Shown: in pieces, positions 43,723 through 63,474 of the stretch | Layout: each line of letters begins with the position of its first letter | Position numbering within the stretch: position 1 is the first letter of the stretch | DNA from: Shigella phage SSP1 | Sequence record: KY963424 | DNA: 64,000 nucleotides | Direction: 5' to 3' (one strand) | The notes under the pieces: generated by a model | What the model was told of the DNA's origin: nothing | Database searches by the model: none | Seen by the model: the letters and a program-made list of their open reading frames with translations, nothing else | Program-made: the position numbers and the translations under genes

Positions 43723-44106
43723 ATGAGTAAAGAAATTGAATTAGAACAAGCCCTTCTGAATTACTCCAATTACTTGCAGGGTGATAAAGAAACTATTACT
43801 AAGGAACAGGTATTATTAATACTAGACTCTATCACTTCTAAATTCAGGACTTTAGAAGACTACTACTCTGTAGGCAATGGAGATGAGAAGGTAGAGTTAT
43901 GTCTAAATCTCCTAGAAGATATGGGTTGGGATGAGGAAGATCAAGTAGGGTATTTAGGTATATCTACAGAAATTCTAGAAAATACAGAGCATGAAAATAT
44001 ACTTGAAGTAAAGAGCAGAAGTGCTATTCGATATAATACTTATGGTACAGGTATTACAGGAATAAAAGCATTACTTAGTATAGACATAGGATGGTTAGAT
44101 GAGTAA
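43723..44106 (+). CDS. Hypothetical protein (127 aa)
   Basis: ORF with GGATAA RBS-like sequence. Confidence 0.5.
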   Translation: MSKEIELEQALLNYSNYLQGDKETITKEQVLLILDSITSKFRTLEDYYSVGNGDEKVELCLNLLEDMGWDEEDQVGYLGISTEILENTEHENILEVKSRSAIRYNTYGTGITGIKALLSIDIGWLDE

Positions 44107-44647
44107 AAAGTTACCTAGCCAAGAAAGATTAAAAGAAATACTAATCTATGATCCAGATACTGGTATATTTACTAATAAGGTAAGTCGTGGTAGGGGAGGA
44201 AAAGCAGGTTCGCCAGCTGGATACCTAAGAAAAGATGGCTATATAACTATTAAGATAGATAAAATAGATTATTTAGCGCATAGGTTAGCCTTTCTATACA
44301 TGACAGGATCAATACCTGATTTAATAGACCACAAAAATAGAATTAGGTCAGATAATAGGTGGATAAATCTAAGAGAAGCTACAAGCCAGTCTAATAACAG
44401 AAATTGTACCGCATCGAGTAAATCTGGATATCTAGGTGTACACTGGAACAAACAACTACAGAAATGGCAAGTACAGGTGATTGATAATAATGGTAAAAAT
44501 ATTTACGGGGGTGTTTTTGATTACTTAGACCTAGAAAGTGCGGTCATAAAGGCTAATGAACTAAGAAAAACACTTCATGGTAGCGAAGCAGTTATAGAAG
44601 ATTTCTATACCAACTATTACCCACCAATAGAGGAACTTAATAAGTGA
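44099..44647 (+). CDS. HNH homing endonuclease with AP2 domain
   Basis: DHKNRIRSDNRWINLREATSQSNNRN (HNH) and GVHWNKQLQKWQVQVIDNNGKNIYGGVFD (AP2-like). Confidence 0.75.
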   Translation: MSKKLPSQERLKEILIYDPDTGIFTNKVSRGRGGKAGSPAGYLRKDGYITIKIDKIDYLAHRLAFLYMTGSIPDLIDHKNRIRSDNRWINLREATSQSNNRNCTASSKSGYLGVHWNKQLQKWQVQVIDNNGKNIYGGVFDYLDLESAVIKANELRKTLHGSEAVIEDFYTNYYPPIEELNK

Positions 44648-45196: not shown

Positions 45197-45481
45197 ATGC
45201 GGATTTATAACTCAAATTCATTAGGATTTAAGCCATTGAGAAAACGTGCACAATCACCTCGTCAAATAAGAAAGGCTAATATTGGTGAGCCAGAAACACG
45301 TCTTCCACCTCCTCCAGAGCAACGTTTAGTTTATCTGGACGAAGAGTTAGCTGAACGCGAAAGAAAAGCTCAAGAAGAGATTGAGCGTAAGAAAATGTGT
45401 ACTGCTCCAGCCTACTCCAAAGGGGCTTATCAGTATATCTATACAGCCGAGGAGGCTAAAGATGCGGGGCGTAAAAAATGA
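45197..45481 (+). CDS. Hypothetical protein (94 aa)
   Basis: ORF with GAGGAGGG RBS. Confidence 0.5.
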   Translation: MRIYNSNSLGFKPLRKRAQSPRQIRKANIGEPETRLPPPPEQRLVYLDEELAERERKAQEEIERKKMCTAPAYSKGAYQYIYTAEEAKDAGRKK

Positions 45482-45927
45482 AGATTACCGAATTTAAAGG
45501 TACTTATAGTTTCTTATCTAACTTTTATTTATCACCAATTACTTTCGAATACCTAAACGAGATATGGCATGCTGATACTGTAGAACATGCTTTTCAGGCT
45601 ATGAAATCCGACCAAAAAGATGATGTAGCTCATGTACTGCGCTCCCTAAATGCAGGTGTTGCCAAACGTAGAGGACGTAAATTAACTCTGCGCTCTGACT
45701 GGGATAAGGTAAAAGATGATGTAATGCTAGAGCTTTTACGGTTAAAGTTTGCAATCCCTGATTTGAGAGACAAACTGTTAGCAACAAAAAATGCAACTTT
45801 GATCGAAGGAAATACCTGGGGAGATACATATTGGGGTGTTTGCCGAGGAATCGGGGATAATACTTTAGGAGTTCTTTTGATGCAGGTAAGGTCTGAAATT
45901 AAAAGAAGCTTACAGTTAATAAATTAA
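45478..45927 (+). CDS. NADAR-family (YbiA/DUF1768-like) protein
   Basis: 149 aa; FLSNFY...EHAFQA...KSDW...GxxxWG pattern typical of the NADAR domain. Confidence 0.6.
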   Translation: MKITEFKGTYSFLSNFYLSPITFEYLNEIWHADTVEHAFQAMKSDQKDDVAHVLRSLNAGVAKRRGRKLTLRSDWDKVKDDVMLELLRLKFAIPDLRDKLLATKNATLIEGNTWGDTYWGVCRGIGDNTLGVLLMQVRSEIKRSLQLIN

Positions 45928-47363: not shown

Positions 47364-48065
47364 ATGAAAGTAAAACCATTTGGTATGCTAGATATTGAAT
47401 CTCTAGGAACTCCAGGAGATTGTGGTACTACTCATATCGCAATGCCTTCTTTCGCTTTTGTGGCTATGCATGGAATTGATAAAGATCCTGATCTAGTATT
47501 TGTTACTTTGGATGTACAAGATCAGCTTAATTCTGGTGCTAAAGTTACAGCATCTACTCTAGCATTCTGGATGGATCAAGCTAAAAATAGCCCGTCTGCT
47601 ATCCACATTATGGAAGCTATGAAGGAACGTAATCCAAAACTGATTGCCTTCCAAAATGGTAAACATCATTGCACTAATAAATTAGGCTCAAACTATGCTG
47701 CCTTCTCTATGGCTCAAAATATTATGGAGTTGGCTCTAGGCGAAAACGCTTTGTATTATGGCAATGGTCCAGAGTTTGATATGACTATCTACTCCGCAAA
47801 TACGTTCCATGCTGGAACCAATGGAGAGGTAGTTCCGTGGAAATTCTGGAATTTGGGCAATGTTCGATCTCTTCGTAATCTCTGGATGCAAACTGGCTAT
47901 AGTTATAAAGCTCTAGAAACCGAAGGTATTAGCTGGGCAATAGCTAAAATGGAGAAGATGGACACCATTCGTTATGGGATCTATCCGGTTAAGCACGACC
48001 CAGCATTCGATGCCCTAGTTGAGAGCTATTGTGTTGCAGCTATGATCGAAAAAATGAAAATTTGA
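47364..48065 (+). CDS. Putative DEDDh 3'-5' exonuclease
   Basis: MLDIESLG (Exo I-like D-x-E) and KHDPAFDA (Exo III H-x4-D) motifs; tentative. Confidence 0.45.
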   Translation: MKVKPFGMLDIESLGTPGDCGTTHIAMPSFAFVAMHGIDKDPDLVFVTLDVQDQLNSGAKVTASTLAFWMDQAKNSPSAIHIMEAMKERNPKLIAFQNGKHHCTNKLGSNYAAFSMAQNIMELALGENALYYGNGPEFDMTIYSANTFHAGTNGEVVPWKFWNLGNVRSLRNLWMQTGYSYKALETEGISWAIAKMEKMDTIRYGIYPVKHDPAFDALVESYCVAAMIEKMKI

Positions 48066-48371: not shown

Positions 48372-49010
48372 ATGACTACTCGTATTTCTAAAACTCGCGC
48401 TCTGGCAACTATTAAATCTCTGGAAGCTAAAATCCGTAAAGCTACTGAACAGCAGCTTCTGATCGCTGTTGGTGAAGGTAAGGATAAAAACCAGGTTGTA
48501 GTTGGCGCTGCAATCGAAGTAGCTGATCTGTCTACTCGTATTAAGGCAGATTTCCAATCTCTCCTGGATATGATGTCCCAGCGTGATCGTATCAAAGCCG
48601 CTCTGATTAAGAGCAATGCGGAAACAGTAGTTGAGATTGGTTCTCGTAAGATGACTGTTGCGGAAGCAATTGAAGCTAAGCGTTCTATGGAACTTAAAGC
48701 CCAACTGCTGGCTAATATGCGTAAGCAGTTCCATGCCGCTACGGTTAAGTTTAATACGCAGAAAGCACAGTTTGATGCTAAATATGAGCGTTTGCAGGAT
48801 AGCATGGCTACCCGCGATAAGAAAACTTCCGAAGATGAAGTTAAAATGCAGCTCAACCTGCTGGAACTCAAGAATACTCCATTCTTGATTGATCCGCTGG
48901 AACTGGAAAAGCTGATTAAGCAGCATGATGAGGAATATCAGGACTTTGCAACAAATGTTGACTTTGTTCTGTCCGAGTCTAACGCCTCTACCTTCATTGA
49001 AGTAGAGTAA
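48372..49010 (+). CDS. Hypothetical coiled-coil protein (212 aa)
   Basis: AAGGAAACAAATAATG RBS; heptad-like charged pattern. Confidence 0.55.
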   Translation: MTTRISKTRALATIKSLEAKIRKATEQQLLIAVGEGKDKNQVVVGAAIEVADLSTRIKADFQSLLDMMSQRDRIKAALIKSNAETVVEIGSRKMTVAEAIEAKRSMELKAQLLANMRKQFHAATVKFNTQKAQFDAKYERLQDSMATRDKKTSEDEVKMQLNLLELKNTPFLIDPLELEKLIKQHDEEYQDFATNVDFVLSESNASTFIEVE

Positions 49011-49393: not shown

Positions 49394-49422
49394 TTGCTAA
49401 TCTACTAAATTATATGTATAAT
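49394..49422 (+). promoter_or_regulatory. T5-type early promoter (TTGCTA-17-TATAAT)
   Basis: AAAAATGTATTTGCTAATCTACTAAATTATATGTATAAT. Confidence 0.65.
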
Positions 49423-49452: not shown

Positions 49453-49770
49453 ATGACTTTTCATATTTTGATTGATGATGTGCGTAATCTTCACGGAATG
49501 GACATTATCATTCGAACCCCAGAAGCCGCTGTAGAGTTTCTGAATAAAACTGATACCACAGGCCATTTCGTTTATATGGATAATGACTTGGCTGTAGATG
49601 GTATGGAAGGTTATCAAATTCTTCGTTTACTCTTAGAATTTGGGCAGAGACCAAAGAAAGTGGTACTAGTAACCTCGAACCCAGTAGCTAAGCAAAATAT
49701 GCGTAATGATTTGCTTGACTTAGGGTATAAAGAAAATCCCAATCGTGTTGAATATGATTGGCAGGAGTAA
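49453..49770 (+). CDS. Small protein with receiver (CheY-like) domain-like pattern
   Basis: HILIDDV...FVYMDNDLAVDGMEGYQILRLL...VVLVTSNP resembles an orphan REC fold (acidic pocket, phospho-Asp position, T/S, hydrophobic beta strands); tentative. Confidence 0.4.
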   Translation: MTFHILIDDVRNLHGMDIIIRTPEAAVEFLNKTDTTGHFVYMDNDLAVDGMEGYQILRLLLEFGQRPKKVVLVTSNPVAKQNMRNDLLDLGYKENPNRVEYDWQE

Positions 49771-49775
49771 AAAGA

Positions 49776-50225
49776 ATGAAGGCAGCTTTGCTTTTAGTAG
49801 CTGCCCTTACCTTCAGCTTTAGTAGTCAGGCATCGCACGATGCAAAAGAAATAGATTGCATTGCTAAAAATATCTATTTCGAGAGTCGTGGTGAGGGCAT
49901 AAAGGGAATGACGGCGATTGCACATGTTACTAAAAACCGTGTAAACTCCGGTAAATTCCCAGATTCCTACTGTAAAGTAGTATATCAGTCTAACCAGTTC
50001 TCTTGGGTATCTAAGAGACCAAAAGTTGATAAAACTGATGAGGCTTGGCAAACCGCTAAGAATTTAGCTAGAGTGATATACTACGTTGATTTACCACAAG
50101 ATCCTACATATGGAGCACTATACTTCCATAGTGGTAAAGATAAACCTTACTGGACAAAGAAGTTTAAGAAAACAACTAAGATTAAGGGGCATACGTTTTA
50201 TAAACCTGTTGTCACTAAAACTTAA
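49776..50225 (+). CDS. Secreted cell-wall hydrolase, SleB-like (Hydrolase_2)
   Basis: N-terminal signal peptide MKAALLLVAALTFSFSSQA; IAKNIYFESRGEG...AIAHVTKNR core similar to SleB/CwlJ-type hydrolases. Confidence 0.55.
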   Translation: MKAALLLVAALTFSFSSQASHDAKEIDCIAKNIYFESRGEGIKGMTAIAHVTKNRVNSGKFPDSYCKVVYQSNQFSWVSKRPKVDKTDEAWQTAKNLARVIYYVDLPQDPTYGALYFHSGKDKPYWTKKFKKTTKIKGHTFYKPVVTKT

Positions 50226-50233
50226 AAATTTAC

Positions 50234-50262
50234 TTGCTTAAATACTTAAATTTCCGTATAAT
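50234..50262 (+). promoter_or_regulatory. T5-type early promoter (TTGCTT-17-TATAAT)
   Basis: AAAAATTTACTTGCTTAAATACTTAAATTTCCGTATAAT. Confidence 0.65.
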
Positions 50263-50293: not shown

Positions 50294-50464
50294 ATGAAAT
50301 CAGTTGTAATTATTGGTGTTAACACTCGCGGTATTCGTACTACGAAAACTGTTAAAACTTCTAACGTTGCTGAAATCACTACGAACCCTAAAAAGTTTGA
50401 TTTCGCCAAAGTCTCAGCAGTTATGACAGAACAATCTTTTAACCAAGCGTTAGGAATGAAATAA
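50294..50464 (+). CDS. Hypothetical small protein (56 aa)
   Basis: GAGGAAGCGAAATATG RBS; below 60-aa cut-off of ORF track; stop overlaps next start (TAATG). Confidence 0.35.
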   Translation: MKSVVIIGVNTRGIRTTKTVKTSNVAEITTNPKKFDFAKVSAVMTEQSFNQALGMK

Positions 50465-50907
50465 TGGAAGAGAATATTTTAGATGTTTTGCGTAGAGCTT
50501 TGCAGGATTCTAAGTTTAATGGTTCTGATAAAGAAGTCGCTAAAAGCTATCAGACCATAATTGGGGATCTTCAGCGTATTGATAAAGATTTCATCACTTC
50601 TGAACAATTTGTGTCTTATCTCAAAGCTCAACTAAAAAGCATTAACCAGATGAAAGCTAAACTTCATGGTCAAGATCTTGATAGTTATAGCTTGCAGTCT
50701 GCTCAGTATGAATACATTCTAAATAAGTGGTTGCAGGAGTATCTGCCCCCTCAGTTATCTGATACTGAGATTCGTAAATACTTTGCAGAATTAGTTAAGC
50801 TAAACCCTGGAATTACAAAAGGTATGCTGATGAAAGCGATTAAGGAAGAATTTCCTGGGCGTTATGATGGTGGTACTGCTGCTCAGATTGCTGGCGAATT
50901 TAATTAA
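50464..50907 (+). CDS. GatB/YqeY-domain protein
   Basis: 147 aa; LSDTEIRKYFAEL...GMLMKAIK pattern typical of YqeY/GatB C-terminal domain. Confidence 0.55.
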   Translation: MEENILDVLRRALQDSKFNGSDKEVAKSYQTIIGDLQRIDKDFITSEQFVSYLKAQLKSINQMKAKLHGQDLDSYSLQSAQYEYILNKWLQEYLPPQLSDTEIRKYFAELVKLNPGITKGMLMKAIKEEFPGRYDGGTAAQIAGEFN

Positions 50908-50915
50908 AAATTTAT

Positions 50916-50944
50916 TTGCTAAATGCCTTTAAATTCTGTATAAT
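50916..50944 (+). promoter_or_regulatory. T5-type early promoter (TTGCTA-17-TATAAT) preceding ORF-less region
   Basis: AAAAATTTATTTGCTAAATGCCTTTAAATTCTGTATAAT + CATAAATTAGGGAAC. Confidence 0.65.
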
Positions 50945-51182: not shown

Positions 51183-51254
51183 GCCGTCCTAGTATAATTG
51201 GTATTATCAAGCCGTAACTGGTGGAAGATGTAGGTTCGAATCCTACGGTCGGTA
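51183..51254 (+). ncRNA. tRNA-like element (canonical T-arm, 6/7 acceptor pairs, no recognisable anticodon arm)
   Basis: GTAGG-TTCGAAT-CCTAC T-arm; 5' GCCGTCC pairs with 3' GGTCGGT except one U-U; D- and anticodon regions do not fold canonically. Confidence 0.35.
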
Positions 51255-51754: not shown

Positions 51755-51827
51755 AACGGGGTGTAGTCTAAGGGAGAGGCAGGAGTCTTCTAAATTCCTT
51801 TATGCAGGTTCGAATCCTGTATGAGCA
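51755..51827 (+). ncRNA. tRNA-like 3' element (T-arm GCAGG-TTCGAAT-CCTGT) at end of ORF-less region
   Basis: Canonical T-loop; no complementary 5' acceptor strand found by eye. Confidence 0.3.
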
Positions 51828-52734
51828 AAAATTGATGCGTAATATCAAACGTTGGGGTATTGGTGCTGCAGTTGGTTTGGTAGGTTTAGTTCTGGCCCTT
51901 AACTCCTATACTGTTGTTCAAGACGGTACTGTTAAAACCCAGACTTTCCTGGGTAAAGTTGACCCTAGCCCAGTATTACCCGGCTTTCATATTGTAAATC
52001 CTTTTGCTTCTTTCGATACTTTTAGTACTAAAGATATTGCTCTAAAATTAGATAAACTTCAGGTTCCTAGTCAGGATAAGTTTAAATCCACTGTTGACCT
52101 GACTGTTATGTTGCAGTTTGATGGTTCTAAGGCACCGATTAACCGTATTAATGCAGGTACTCAGGATCAATCGTTAGACAAATATGTAACTGAAAAATTA
52201 CTGTCTACTATTCGTGAGTTTGGTAAATCTGTACCTAAAGCACAAGATTTGTTTGATGCTAAAATTCAGGCTCAATTGCAAACTGCAATTCAACAGGAAG
52301 TTGAAGAGTATGCACGCCCATATGGTTACACAGTTAAGCAGGTGTTCCTTCAGGATATTACTTTGCCACCGGTAATCATGGAACAGGTACAGAATACCAA
52401 AGTTCGTGAAGAGCAGGTTAATGCTGCTAAAGCTGAATTAGCTCGTGTTGAACAGGAAGCACAGCAAAAAGTTAAACAAGCAGAAGCAGATCGTGAAGCC
52501 CGCAACAACCAAGCTATTGCCAATGAACGTGACGCAGATGCTAAACTATACGCAGCTAAGAAAGAAGCTGAAGCTAACGCCGCATTACAACGTACCATTA
52601 CTCCTGAGATGATTCGCTGGAAGCAACTGGAAGTCGAAATGATTCGTGCTCAGAAATATCAAGGTGGTGTACCCCAGACTGTGGTAGGTACTGGCTACGA
52701 TGGTCAAATGATCATGGATATGCGTAATAAATAA
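51802..52734 (+). CDS. SPFH/band-7 domain membrane protein (prohibitin/HflC-like)
   Basis: N-terminal TM helix WGIGAAVGLVGLVLAL, SPFH-like core, C-terminal Ala/Glu/Gln-rich coiled coil; likely start at ATG 51835 (MRNIKRW); no clear SD. Confidence 0.65.
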   Translation: MQVRILYEQKLMRNIKRWGIGAAVGLVGLVLALNSYTVVQDGTVKTQTFLGKVDPSPVLPGFHIVNPFASFDTFSTKDIALKLDKLQVPSQDKFKSTVDLTVMLQFDGSKAPINRINAGTQDQSLDKYVTEKLLSTIREFGKSVPKAQDLFDAKIQAQLQTAIQQEVEEYARPYGYTVKQVFLQDITLPPVIMEQVQNTKVREEQVNAAKAELARVEQEAQQKVKQAEADREARNNQAIANERDADAKLYAAKKEAEANAALQRTITPEMIRWKQLEVEMIRAQKYQGGVPQTVVGTGYDGQMIMDMRNK

Positions 52735-59195: not shown

Positions 59196-59777
59196 ATGCA
59201 CGGAATATTTTTACCTATTCCTATGTTTGATGAATATCTGGTAAGTCTAGATGGGTTAGTGTTCAGTATTAAATCAAATAAAATACTAACCCCAATAACT
59301 AGTAATTATGGATATGTATCTGTACGCCTACATCATAACGGTAGGCAAAGAAATACTGGTATACATAGAATCATAGCATGTGCCTTTAAAAGGTTACCTA
59401 GTTTAGACTCTGTACTAGAGGTTGATCATATTGATACAGATATCACCTATTGGGGATTAAATAATCTACAAGTCCTTACTAAAGAACAGCATTTAGAAAA
59501 AACCCTGAAAGATAAGGGCTATAATAAACTAATACATAATAAACAGTGTAGTATATGTGGTGAACCTATATCACTGAAAGCAGATAAGTGTCAAAAATGC
59601 TCATCACATAAACTGAAAGATCCATCTATTACTAAAGAAATAATAGAATCTACTGTAAAAGAGTTAGGATGGTCTGGTGCTGGAAGAAGATTATCTTATT
59701 CTGATAACGGGTTAAGAAAACGTTATAAAGCATTAGGTGGTGATCCAAAAGAATTAAAAAAGTTAAAGGTACTATAG
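59196..59777 (+). CDS. HNH homing endonuclease (NUMOD4-like N-terminus + HNH)
   Basis: IHRIIACAF...EVDHIDTDITYWGLNNLQVLTKEQHLEKT HNH core; paralog of 62914..63474 with shared C-terminal SGAGRRLSYSDNGLRKRYKALGG; stop overlaps tRNA-Asp. Confidence 0.7.
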   Translation: MHGIFLPIPMFDEYLVSLDGLVFSIKSNKILTPITSNYGYVSVRLHHNGRQRNTGIHRIIACAFKRLPSLDSVLEVDHIDTDITYWGLNNLQVLTKEQHLEKTLKDKGYNKLIHNKQCSICGEPISLKADKCQKCSSHKLKDPSITKEIIESTVKELGWSGAGRRLSYSDNGLRKRYKALGGDPKELKKLKVL

Positions 59778-62913: not shown

Positions 62914-63474
62914 ATGAAAATAATTCCTGAATTTCCAAACTATAGTATAACTGAGGATGGTAAGGTATGGTCTAAAAATATTAATGCATTTTTATCTCCA
63001 TATGTTAATAACTCAGGATACCCATGCTATAAACTCCACAAGAATGGTATTCAGTACACACAGTCTATCCATAGATTACTTGCTAGAGTGTATAAGGGTT
63101 TACCTTCACTAGACTCTGAACTAGAGGTAGATCATAAAGATACCGATCCTTCTAATTATAGTTTAGATAATATACAAGTTCTAAGTAAAGAAGAACACTT
63201 GAAGAAAACCCTTCAAGATAGGAAACAGTTGCCTTATAATACTATTTGCCCACTTTGCTCAGGCTACAAAGATCCTGGTGCTTCTAAGTGTAAGAAATGT
63301 TCTTCTTTATCACAAGTAAAAGATAAATCTGTTACCGTAGAACAGATCGAATACTGGGTTAAAAACTATTCTTGGGTAAGAGCTGGAAAGGAATTAGGTT
63401 ATTCAGATAGTGGATTACGTAAACGTTATAAAGCTCTTACTGGTAAAGACCCTAAACAAATAAAATGCGGTTAG
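62914..63474 (+). CDS. HNH homing endonuclease (NUMOD4-like N-terminus + HNH)
   Basis: EFPNYSITEDGKVWS; IHRLLARVY...EVDHKDTDPSNYSLDNIQVLSKEEHLKKT; paralog of 59196..59777; stop overlaps tRNA-Gly. Confidence 0.7.
   Translation: MKIIPEFPNYSITEDGKVWSKNINAFLSPYVNNSGYPCYKLHKNGIQYTQSIHRLLARVYKGLPSLDSELEVDHKDTDPSNYSLDNIQVLSKEEHLKKTLQDRKQLPYNTICPLCSGYKDPGASKCKKCSSLSQVKDKSVTVEQIEYWVKNYSWVRAGKELGYSDSGLRKRYKALTGKDPKQIKCG

What the first reader, a model, noticed from the sequence alone, without database searches (positions are those of the whole stretch)
49453..50225. Receiver-domain-like small protein followed by a secreted SleB-type cell-wall hydrolase
The 105-aa product resembles a stand-alone response-regulator receiver domain (acidic N-terminal strand, YMDNDL, LVTSNP). 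The next gene encodes a signal-peptide-bearing SleB/CwlJ-like peptidoglycan hydrolase. Neither is an expected early phage function; the hydrolase could act at entry or on neighbouring cells, and an orphan REC domain could act as a phosphate sink on host two-component signalling.
Basis: inference. Interest (0 to 1): 0.4.

Follow-up and report, generated by a model that had tools for sequence, protein, structure and literature searches.

The report
T5-phage cREC protein plus exported SleB-like hydrolase
Two small, conserved early genes of a T5-like phage encode a stripped-down receiver-fold protein of the already named but untested 'cREC' family and a secreted SleB-type cell-wall enzyme; both were identified correctly, but they are known, unlinked accessory genes, not a device that hijacks host signalling.

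Summary
Window 49453-49770 encodes a 105-aa protein and 49776-50225 a 149-aa protein. They are packed 5 nt apart behind one sigma-70-like promoter.

The window is a T5-like phage (Tequintavirus). The genes correspond to T5.084 and T5.083 and recur in more than 440 phage records.

Gene 2 is a SleB/Hydrolase_2 catalytic domain with the ESRGE motif, a cleavable-looking signal peptide and a conserved Cys pair. It lies about 22 kb from T5's holin-endolysin cassette.

The adjacency is confined to one subfamily. It is broken in phage My1 and absent from all 19 non-Demerecviridae cREC loci examined. One of those loci places cREC inside a kinase/RNA-ligase/phosphoesterase cassette. Others place it beside Acb1 or near Tad3.

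Best reading: two independent accessory genes. One is a cytoplasmic Asp-based phosphoesterase for cyclic-phosphate RNA ends or nucleotide signals. The other is a periplasmic auxiliary muralytic enzyme. The 'phosphate sink' and 'entry' ideas are not supported. Both families are already described; their biochemistry is untested.

The parts
49394..49422 (+). Sigma-70-type promoter (TTGCTA, 17 nt spacer, TATAAT) driving the two-gene unit
   Evidence: The consensus scan scores it 10 of 12. The syntenic position in T5 carries an annotated promoter upstream of T5.084.
49453..49770 (+). cREC-family gene (105 aa, T5.084 orthologue): a cytoplasmic, minimal receiver-fold protein. Key residues are D8 D9 R11 D17 R21 D43 N44 D45 T74 N76 Y92.
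49763..49767 (+). Shine-Dalgarno AGGAG of the hydrolase gene, lying inside the last codons of the cREC gene
   Evidence: Read directly from the sequence. It lies 8 nt before ATG 49776. The stop-to-start gap is 5 nt.
49776..49832 (+). Predicted Sec signal peptide of the hydrolase (residues 1-19, MKAALLLVAALTFSFSSQA, with cleavage after SQA)
   Evidence: The best 10-residue Kyte-Doolittle score is 2.69. Of 76 homologues, 74 have an N-terminal hydrophobic segment and only 1 is lipobox-like. The cleavage site is inferred from the -3/-1 rule and was not tested with a dedicated predictor.
49833..50225 (+). Mature SleB/Hydrolase_2 catalytic domain (T5.083 orthologue). It has the ESRGE motif (E36, E40) and conserved C28/C66. 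The coordinates include the stop codon.
   Evidence: Pfam PF07486 at E 3.4e-25. Foldseek matches 4f55/4fet. phmmer aligns YFESRGE with SleB's YGESRGE. Invariant columns are listed. dN/dS is 0.05-0.14.
50234..50262 (+). Next promoter (TTGCTT, 17 nt spacer, TATAAT) for the DUF7616/YqeY-like genes. It marks the downstream edge of the unit.
   Evidence: Read from the sequence. It corresponds by synteny to T5 'promoter P-D/E 33'. It falls below the scan threshold, and no terminator was found between the units.

Best explanation
This is a compact early transcription unit of a T5-like phage. It carries two unrelated, individually conserved accessory genes whose products act in different compartments.

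Gene 1 (T5.084 type) is a cytoplasmic member of the cREC family. It has a receiver fold reduced to five strands and three helices. It keeps the acidic pocket of receivers (D8/D9, D43, T74). It adds a second Asp two residues after the central one (D43-x-D45), two invariant arginines (R11, R21) and N76. It has lost the receiver lysine and the kinase-docking helix.

I infer that gene 1 is an aspartate-based phosphoesterase, working much like a HAD-type enzyme built on a receiver scaffold. Its likely job is to open cyclic phosphates. The candidate substrates are 2',3'-cyclic ends on tRNA/RNA cut by host anticodon nucleases, or ADP-ribose-derived and other cyclic nucleotide immune signals. That would make it part of the phage's counter-defence and RNA-maintenance gene set, which sits next to the tRNA cluster.

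Gene 2 (T5.083 type) is exported by Sec, loses its signal peptide and probably forms a C28-C66 disulfide in the periplasm. Using the SleB-type catalytic glutamate (E36), it cleaves glycan strands as a lytic transglycosylase. It most likely serves as an auxiliary wall-weakening enzyme beside the canonical holin / L-Ala-D-Glu peptidase / spanin cassette, which is encoded about 22 kb away.

Shown here: gene boundaries, family membership, folds, conserved residues, purifying selection, and the lack of conserved linkage. Inferred: substrates, catalysis, export and disulfide formation, and the biological roles.
For: Identity and family:
- The window is 99.7% identical to a Tequintavirus genome, and 445 phage records share the block.
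- The T5 orthologues are T5.084 and T5.083, with annotated promoters on both sides.
- Pfam cREC_REC hits at 3.8e-15 and Hydrolase_2 at 3.4e-25.

cREC structure and residues:
- hhalign against CheY maps D8/D9 to D12/D13, D43 to D57, D45 to N59 and T74 to T87. It shows a 12-residue deletion where alpha1 lies.
- Across 146 representatives at 50% identity or less, these positions are 88% or more conserved: D8, D9, R11, D17, R21, D43, D45, G53, P67, N76, P77 and Y92. Position 74 is always T or S. The position matching the receiver lysine varies.

cREC context elsewhere:
- In locus L040 the genes for cREC, an AAA_33 kinase, T4-type RNA ligase 1 and a calcineurin-like phosphoesterase overlap in a row, with Tad3 two genes upstream.
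- An RNA ligase lies 2.4 kb from cREC in L047.
- Acb1 lies 72 bp upstream in L049.
- The family's describers report the same associations (RNA ligases, Nudix, sirtuin, 2H, NADAR) and none with histidine kinases (PMC7824862, PMC9503650).

cREC context in this window:
- A NADAR gene (45478-45927), an Rv2179c-like exoribonuclease, RNase H, a YqeY-like gene and 18 tRNA genes surround it.

Hydrolase:
- It matches the SleB catalytic domain at TM 0.71-0.79.
- The ESRGE motif aligns with SleB's.
- E36, E40 and C66 are invariant and C28 nearly so across 30 homologues, and 74 of 76 homologues have an N-terminal hydrophobic segment.
- T5's lys/holin genes (T5.040/041) and spanin genes (T5.044/045) lie at 19.9-23.2 kb, against 42.3 kb for T5.083.

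Independence of the two genes:
- They are adjacent, or separated only by a small insert or one extra gene, in all 29 Markadamsvirinae loci examined.
- In My1, cREC sits 2.8 kb and five genes away from the hydrolase.
- No SleB homologue lies within 6 kb in the 13 non-Demerecviridae viral loci plus the phi-Grn1 GenBank locus. None was recorded in 6 further metagenomic loci.
Against: - No cREC protein has been characterised biochemically (PMC9503650 says so explicitly), so the enzymatic claim rests on residues and gene context.
- No RNA ligase, polynucleotide kinase, Acb1 or Tad3 homologue was found in this 64-kb window. An RNA-repair role here would have to rely on host enzymes or on genes outside the window.
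- The T5 clade has N44 and A47 where most of the family has H44 and G47. If His44 is catalytic, this clade may be less active or may differ in substrate.
- Most non-T5 neighbourhoods are uninformative strings of small unknown genes. Context support comes from about 3 of 19 loci.
- For the hydrolase, an active exported muralytic enzyme made early should risk premature lysis, and no control mechanism is evident.
- Spore SleB recognises muramic-delta-lactam, which enteric peptidoglycan lacks, so substrate specificity must differ.
- The signal-peptide cleavage site was judged by eye, not by a dedicated predictor.
Confidence: 0.6

Rival explanations
1. First reader's model. The orphan receiver domain drains phosphoryl groups from host histidine kinases or phosphotransfer proteins and so blunts host two-component signalling.
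For: The receiver-like fold is real. The acidic pocket residues that accept phosphate in receivers are retained: D8/D9, D43 and T74. Single-domain receivers acting as phosphate sinks are known in bacteria (own knowledge).
Against: - The canonical Response_reg model is not met (12.5 bits against 30.2).
- Helix alpha1 is absent. From established knowledge of HK-RR complexes, it is the main kinase-docking and specificity surface.
- The conserved receiver lysine is missing family-wide.
- Extra invariant R11, R21, D45 and N76 point to a different ligand.
- No histidine-kinase domain was recorded among Pfam-annotated genes in any related locus examined or reported in the family survey (PMC7824862, PMC9503650).
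- The family is spread over phages of very different hosts. That fits poorly with kinase-specific mimicry.
Confidence: 0.05
2. The cREC protein is not an enzyme. It is a small binder (sponge or sensor) of a phosphorylated or cyclic nucleotide, or a phospho-accepting switch fed by small-molecule donors.
For: It is about 100 aa and stand-alone in the top 120 of 3708 relatives, the size range of known phage nucleotide sponges (own knowledge). It lies next to Acb1 or near Tad3 in two loci. The conserved Asp/Arg residues could bind a ligand rather than catalyse a reaction.
Against: The D-x-D arrangement plus T/S and an acidic pair is the layout used for catalysis in receivers and HAD enzymes (own knowledge). 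In L040 the gene overlaps with kinase, ligase and phosphoesterase genes, which suggests an enzymatic step in a pathway. The family's describers argue for catalysis (PMC7824862).
Confidence: 0.12
3. The two genes form a functional pair. For example, the receiver-like protein controls or times the hydrolase.
For: They share a promoter, have a 5-nt gap and the second gene's ribosome-binding site lies inside the first gene. They are adjacent or near-adjacent throughout Markadamsvirinae.
Against: - The products are predicted to sit in different compartments, cytoplasm and periplasm.
- Linkage is broken in My1 and interrupted in NR01 and KKP_3711.
- No SleB homologue lies near cREC in 19 non-Demerecviridae loci.
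- SleB-type homologues occur widely without cREC.
Confidence: 0.03
4. The SleB-like protein is a true, required endolysin of the Sec-exported type. It accumulates in the periplasm and is unleashed when the holin collapses the membrane potential.
For: It hits PHROG 'endolysin' families. There is a precedent for signal-peptide endolysins held inactive until depolarisation (Lys44; PMC6116005). It is conserved in more than 440 genomes and under purifying selection.
Against: T5 already has a complete holin/endolysin/spanin set elsewhere. The gene is not next to any holin. Authors who noted the 'second endolysin far from the holin' could not assign it a role (PMC11180984). Whether it is essential is unknown.
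Confidence: 0.15
5. The hydrolase acts at DNA entry or on neighbouring cells from outside.
For: It has a muralytic fold.
Against: It is encoded on DNA that must already be inside the cell and is targeted to the producer's own periplasm. T5 entry muralysis is assigned to the tape-measure protein pb2 (PMC6116005). The outer membrane shields neighbouring Gram-negative cells from added enzyme (own knowledge).
Confidence: 0.03

Closest known systems
cREC (cyclic-phosphate processing Receiver) family, Pfam PF20274, defined in silico by Iyer, Anantharaman, Krishnan, Burroughs and Aravind 2021 (PMC7824862) and revisited in PMC9503650
   Same: The HMM match is well above threshold. It is a small stand-alone phage protein with a receiver-like fold and conserved aspartates. 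No histidine kinase is present. An NADAR gene and RNA-processing genes lie nearby. Some public records already name the identical protein this way.
   Different: In T5-like phages it has no adjacent RNA ligase, Nudix, sirtuin or 2H partner. This clade has N44/A47 where the family majority has H44/G47. The family's activity is itself unproven.
Canonical response-regulator receiver domain (CheY-like, PF00072)
   Different: It fails the Pfam threshold. It lacks alpha1, alpha5 and the conserved Lys. It has additional invariant Arg/Asp/Asn residues. It has no kinase partner.
HAD-superfamily phosphatases (functional analogy only)
   Same: There is an Asp-x-Asp pair at the end of a central strand, a Thr/Ser on a neighbouring strand, an acidic metal-binding pair and a basic residue. 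This is the chemistry I infer for cREC.
   Different: The motif order and strand placement differ: D-x-D sits on strand 3 here, not strand 1. There is no cap domain. No sequence or structural hit to HAD ranked above the receiver hits. The resemblance is recalled from knowledge and was not tested.
Bacillus SleB spore cortex-lytic transglycosylase, catalytic domain (PDB 4F55, 4FET)
   Same: It shares 28-31% identity, the same fold and an identical ESRGE catalytic motif.
   Different: It has no N-terminal peptidoglycan-binding domain and fails the TIGR02869 equivalog cut-off (50 bits against 236). It carries a Sec signal and a Cys pair that the spore enzyme lacks. Its substrate cannot be muramic-lactam cortex in an enteric host.
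Sec-exported endolysins such as Lys44 of oenophage fOg44 (PMC6116005)
   Same: Both are muralytic enzymes with a cleavable-type signal peptide, made well before lysis.
   Different: They have different folds and hosts. The protein here coexists with a canonical cytoplasmic endolysin plus holin. PMF-dependent control has not been shown.

Membership tests
cREC (PF20274) | Match to the family profile above the curated threshold | tested here: met
   56.8 bits against a cut-off of 27, E 3.8e-15, covering profile positions 2-86 of 88.
cREC (PF20274) | Receiver-like alpha/beta fold | tested here: met
cREC (PF20274) | Conserved active-site aspartates shared with receivers | tested here: met
   D8, D9, D43 and D45 are present. 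Each is conserved in at least 144 of the 146 family representatives (D9 in all 146).
cREC (PF20274) | Never associated with histidine kinases; linked to RNA-repair or NAD/ADP-ribose-processing genes | tested here: inconclusive
   No kinase domain was recorded among Pfam-annotated genes in the window or related loci. There is an RNA-ligase cassette in L040, an RNA ligase in L047, Acb1 in L049 and NADAR 3.5 kb away in the window. No ligase, kinase or Nudix partner lies in this window, and most loci were uninformative.
cREC (PF20274) | Cyclic-phosphate phosphodiesterase activity | not testable with these tools
   The activity is predicted only. The family is stated to be experimentally uncharacterised (PMC9503650).
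Canonical response-regulator receiver (PF00072) | Match to the family profile above threshold | tested here: not met
   12.5 bits against a cut-off of 30.2, E 0.17.
Canonical response-regulator receiver (PF00072) | Full (beta-alpha)5 architecture including alpha1 and alpha5 | tested here: not met
   The model has five strands but only three helices (23-32, 53-62, 77-90). The CheY alignment shows a 12-residue gap at alpha1.
Canonical response-regulator receiver (PF00072) | Conserved quintet Asp-Asp, Asp, Thr/Ser, Lys | tested here: not met
   The first four are present. The lysine position is variable (K 29, T 24, V 22 of 146).
Canonical response-regulator receiver (PF00072) | Cognate histidine kinase or phosphotransfer partner | tested here: not met
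   None was found in the ORFs scanned in the window (43.7-63.5 kb) or in the related loci examined. Host kinases cannot be excluded computationally.
SleB/CwlJ cell-wall hydrolase domain (PF07486) | Profile match, fold and catalytic glutamate motif | tested here: met
   89 bits against a cut-off of 27. Foldseek matches 4f55/4fet. ESRGE aligns with SleB's, with E36 and E40 invariant. That the first Glu is the catalytic residue is recalled from the SleB structure papers, not tested here.
Spore cortex-lytic enzyme SleB proper (TIGR02869 equivalog) | Full-length equivalence, including the N-terminal peptidoglycan-binding domain | tested here: not met
   50.4 bits against a cut-off of 236.5, and only the C-terminal catalytic part aligns. 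The N-terminus here is just a signal peptide.
Phage endolysin (functional class) | Muralytic enzyme encoded with, or dependent on, a holin/spanin lysis cassette and required for lysis | tested here: inconclusive
   The muralytic domain is present and PHROG endolysin families are hit. The gene lies about 22 kb from T5 lys/holin/spanin and has its own export signal. Whether lysis requires it was not tested.

The most novel reading that the evidence does not exclude
The T5.084-type cREC protein is a stand-alone anti-defence enzyme of a model phage. It destroys a cyclic-phosphate-bearing immune molecule or repair intermediate, for example 2',3'-cyclic-phosphate tRNA ends left by anticodon nucleases, ADP-ribose cyclic phosphate, or cyclic (oligo)nucleotide signals. 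It would do this using a receiver fold converted into a hydrolase. That would be the first demonstrated catalytic, non-signalling use of the receiver scaffold in a virus.
Probability: 0.3. Interest if true: 0.65.

Novelty: already known. Interest (0 to 1): 0.25.

Why it matters
The finding is mostly a correct re-identification of two annotated gene families, so its discovery value is low. What remains is practical. cREC is a widespread family: 3708 relatives at E<=1e-5 at the 90%-identity cluster level. It is entirely uncharacterised and is predicted to act on cyclic phosphates. Its T5 orthologue sits in a genetically tractable model phage that is already used to study tRNA-targeting defences. 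A T5.084 knockout and a simple enzyme panel would test the published prediction directly. The exported SleB-like enzyme raises a small, concrete question about why T5-like phages keep a second, holin-independent muralytic enzyme.

Tried and rejected
- A diverse 60-sequence cREC alignment could not seed a collection scan because it had no conserved 7-10-residue stretch. A narrower 12-sequence alignment worked.
- Neighbourhood Pfam scans of six non-T5 viral loci gave an informative result in only one, L040.
- Six metagenomic contigs gave two informative contexts, L047 and L049.
- Literature searches for T5.083/T5.084 found nothing relevant. The proteomic papers on T5-like phages were too shallow to say whether the hydrolase is in virions.
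- The SleB structure paper could not be opened, so the identity of the catalytic Glu rests on memory.
- The afdb50 structural library was unavailable.
- I rejected the idea of a functional cREC-SleB pair after the linkage test.
- I rejected a lipoprotein or SAR reading of the hydrolase N-terminus. There is no lipobox, the core is strongly hydrophobic, and an SQA|S site follows it.
Full report
**What is there**

The region holds two tightly packed genes on the + strand.
- ORF A runs 49453-49770 (ATG start, 105 aa, GAGG 5 nt upstream).
- ORF B is listed from TTG 49758. It almost certainly starts at ATG 49776, with AGGAG 8 nt upstream inside the last codons of ORF A. That gives the 149 aa annotated in public records of the same gene.
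- A sigma-70-type promoter (TTGCTA, 17 nt, TATAAT; 10 of 12 matches) lies at 49394-49422.
- A second promoter (TTGCTT, 17 nt, TATAAT) lies at 50234-50262, just after ORF B. No terminator-like site lies in between.

**Where the window comes from**

- The block is 99.7% identical to Salmonella phage vB_SalS_ABTNLsp4. 445 phage records share it, nearly all T5-like (Demerecviridae, Markadamsvirinae) phages of Salmonella and Escherichia.
- In T5 itself the two genes are T5.084 ('hypothetical protein, similar to KVP40.0304') and T5.083 ('endolysin'). Annotated promoters lie upstream of T5.084 and downstream of T5.083.
- The unit sits at the border between the nucleotide-metabolism/RNase H block and the tRNA cluster. 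The window has 18 tRNA genes from 55.3 kb onward.
- Both genes evolve under purifying selection against diverged T5-like phages. dN/dS is 0.08-0.17 for ORF A and 0.05-0.14 for ORF B.

**ORF A is a cREC protein, not a canonical receiver**

- Pfam assigns it to PF20274 cREC_REC (56.8 bits, cut-off 27, E 3.8e-15). The ordinary Response_reg model scores 12.5 bits against a cut-off of 30.2.
- PHROGs places it in phrog_1479, of unknown function.
- The model is a reduced receiver. It has strands at 4-7, 18-20, 39-42, 69-72 and 100-102, and helices at 23-32, 53-62 and 77-90. The first and last helices of the (beta-alpha)5 fold are missing.
It opens a 12-residue gap exactly where CheY alpha1 lies.

**Family-wide conservation**

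- An exhaustive HMMER search of 1.84 billion representatives found 232 relatives at E<=0.001, nearly all stand-alone proteins of about 100 aa.
- In an alignment of 146 of them, these positions are conserved in 88-100% of sequences: D8, D9, R11, D17, R21, D43, D45, L46, G47, G53, P67, N76, P77, L87 and Y92. Position 74 is always T or S.
- Position 44 is H in 100 sequences and N in 40. The T5 clade has N44, and A47 in place of G47.
- The position matching the receiver lysine is variable.
- So the family keeps four of the five receiver quintet residues, drops the lysine, and adds two arginines, a second Asp two residues after the central Asp, and an Asn.
- I read this, by inference from receiver and HAD chemistry, as an Asp-nucleophile plus Asp-acid/base phosphoesterase pocket rather than a signalling switch.

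**What is published on cREC**

- The family was defined purely by comparative genomics. It is described as a divergent receiver never found with histidine kinases. It is linked to NAD+/ADP-ribose-processing enzymes and RNA ligases, and is predicted to open 2',3'-cyclic or ADP-ribose 1''-2'' cyclic phosphates (PMC7824862).
- A later survey states that cREC 'remains experimentally uncharacterized'. It lists contexts with sirtuin, 2H, Nudix, tRNA ligase, kinase and calcineurin-like phosphoesterase genes (PMC9503650).
- UniRef and some GenBank records already call the identical protein 'cyclic-phosphate processing receiver domain-containing protein'.

**My own context tests**

- A profile search of the 5.8-billion-protein set found 3708 relatives at E<=1e-5. 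The best 120 all have PF20274 as their only domain.
- Among 13 non-Demerecviridae viral loci, one GenBank jumbo-phage locus and 6 metagenomic contigs, most neighbourhoods are runs of small unknown genes.
- L040 has overlapping genes for cREC, an AAA_33 P-loop kinase, T4-type RNA ligase 1 and a calcineurin-like phosphoesterase. A Tad3 Thoeris inhibitor lies two genes upstream.
- L047 has an RNA ligase 2.4 kb away.
- L049 has the anti-CBASS nuclease Acb1 72 bp upstream.
- No histidine-kinase domain was recorded in any Pfam annotation.
- In this window the neighbours include RNase H, a NADAR protein (45478-45927), an Rv2179c-like 3'-5' exoribonuclease, a YqeY-like protein and the tRNA cluster.
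- No homologue of the L040/L047 ligases, the kinase, Acb1 or Tad3 is present in the 64 kb.
- The published prediction is therefore reproduced in part. For T5-like phages the protein is an orphan without an obvious partner.

**ORF B is an exported SleB-type muralytic enzyme**

- Pfam Hydrolase_2 scores 89 bits (E 3.4e-25). The spore-SleB equivalog TIGR02869 is far below its cut-off (50 against 236 bits), and only the catalytic part aligns.
- The model (pLDDT 91.2) matches the catalytic domains of B. cereus and B. anthracis SleB, at Foldseek E 2e-5 to 7e-5, TM 0.71-0.79 and 28-31% identity.
- The YFESRGE segment aligns with SleB's YGESRGE.
- Across 30 homologues down to 32% identity, E36, E40 and C66 are invariant and C28 nearly so. 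The spore enzyme has no cysteines at those positions. This fits a periplasmic disulfide, which is an inference.
- The N-terminus (MK, then AALLLVAALTFSF, then SSQA|S) has the n/h/c layout of a Sec signal peptide. 74 of 76 homologues have such a segment and only one is lipobox-like.
- ORF A has no hydrophobic segment, so the two products should act in different compartments.

**Relation to lysis and entry**

- T5's endolysin (lys, T5.040), holin (T5.041) and spanins (T5.044/045) lie at 19.9-23.2 kb, about 22 kb from T5.083 at 42.3 kb.
- Others have already listed the SleB-like gene among early-region lysis genes (PMC3326045). It has also been noted as a second 'endolysin far from the holin' of unknown role (PMC11180984).
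- Peptidoglycan cleavage at T5 entry is attributed to the tape-measure protein (PMC6116005).
- The same review documents a Sec-exported endolysin (Lys44) that accumulates outside the membrane and stays inactive until the holin collapses the membrane potential. That is the nearest working precedent.
- I therefore favour an auxiliary periplasmic wall-weakening role. I regard entry or action on neighbouring cells as unlikely.

**Are the two genes a system?**

- With HMMs built here, cREC and the SleB-like gene are adjacent in 27 of the 29 Markadamsvirinae loci examined. In the other two they are separated only by a roughly 470-bp insert (L026) or by one extra 85-aa gene (KKP_3711).
- In Pectobacterium phage My1 (another Demerecviridae subfamily), cREC sits between RNase H and the DUF7022 gene, 2.8 kb and five genes from the hydrolase.
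- None of 13 unrelated viral loci, nor the phi-Grn1 GenBank locus, has a SleB homologue within 6 kb. None was recorded in the 6 metagenomic loci.
- The pairing is inherited synteny, not a conserved functional linkage.

**Verdict**

- The functional interpretation is not supported. This covers the phosphate sink on two-component systems, the entry/neighbour hydrolase, and the 'unexpected early function'.
- Both proteins are 99-100% identical to proteins in many published phages, and their families are already named. The finding is therefore already known at the annotation level.
- What remains open is biochemical. No cREC protein has been assayed, and the role of a second, exported muralytic enzyme in T5-like phages is unknown.

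Noticed in passing
window 51759-51822: The tRNA-Arg(UCU) gene found in T5, oldekolle and ABTNLsp4 is truncated here. The 3' acceptor strand (CACCTCGGCCA) and the following spacer are replaced. ARAGORN does not call it, Rfam scores it 28.4 bits (just under 29), and the SPFH/Band-7 ORF (51802-52734) begins inside the remnant.
   Followed up: partly
window 51183-51254: A tRNA-like element (Rfam tRNA, 35.5 bits) lies inside the region equivalent to T5 'rnaX' (a stable RNA of unknown function). It sits downstream of a strong promoter at 50916-50944. ARAGORN does not call it.
   Followed up: no
window 45478-45927: A NADAR-domain gene (E 6e-22) is a variable insert between the T5.090-like gene and the DUF7022 gene. 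It is present in this window and four other T5-like loci (L008, L009, L016, L019) but absent from T5, oldekolle and ABTNLsp4. In phage My1 the cREC gene occupies this same RNase H-DUF7022 slot.
   Followed up: partly
L040 4828-8187: A metagenomic viral contig carries Tad3 (Thoeris inhibitor), one unknown ORF, then overlapping genes for cREC, an AAA_33 kinase, T4 RNA ligase 1 and a calcineurin-like phosphoesterase. This is a compact RNA-repair cassette next to an anti-defence gene.
   Followed up: partly
L049 4438-5300: The anti-CBASS nuclease Acb1 lies 72 bp upstream of a cREC gene. It is on a contig that also carries TerC/TerD/TelA-type genes.
   Followed up: no
L033 6303-6662 and L035 6317-6871: In two unrelated viral contigs, the gene immediately downstream of cREC (overlapping it in L035) encodes a protein with a ribosomal L7/L12 C-terminal-like segment.
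   Followed up: no
window 47364-48065, 48372-49010, 50464-50907: Public annotations of these neighbours look unreliable. 'Metallopeptidase/exonuclease' matches an Rv2179c-like 3'-5' exoribonuclease domain. 'Tail fiber protein' (212 aa, in the early region) has no Pfam hit. 'tRNA amidotransferase' is only a weak YqeY-like match (25.4 bits, below the cut-off of 27).
   Followed up: partly
window 44099-44647, 59196-59777, 62914-63474: Free-standing HNH homing-endonuclease genes are scattered through the early and tRNA region. A relative (P0111, 273 aa) even has an HNH domain fused in front of a cREC domain, which probably reflects an endonuclease insertion.
   Followed up: no
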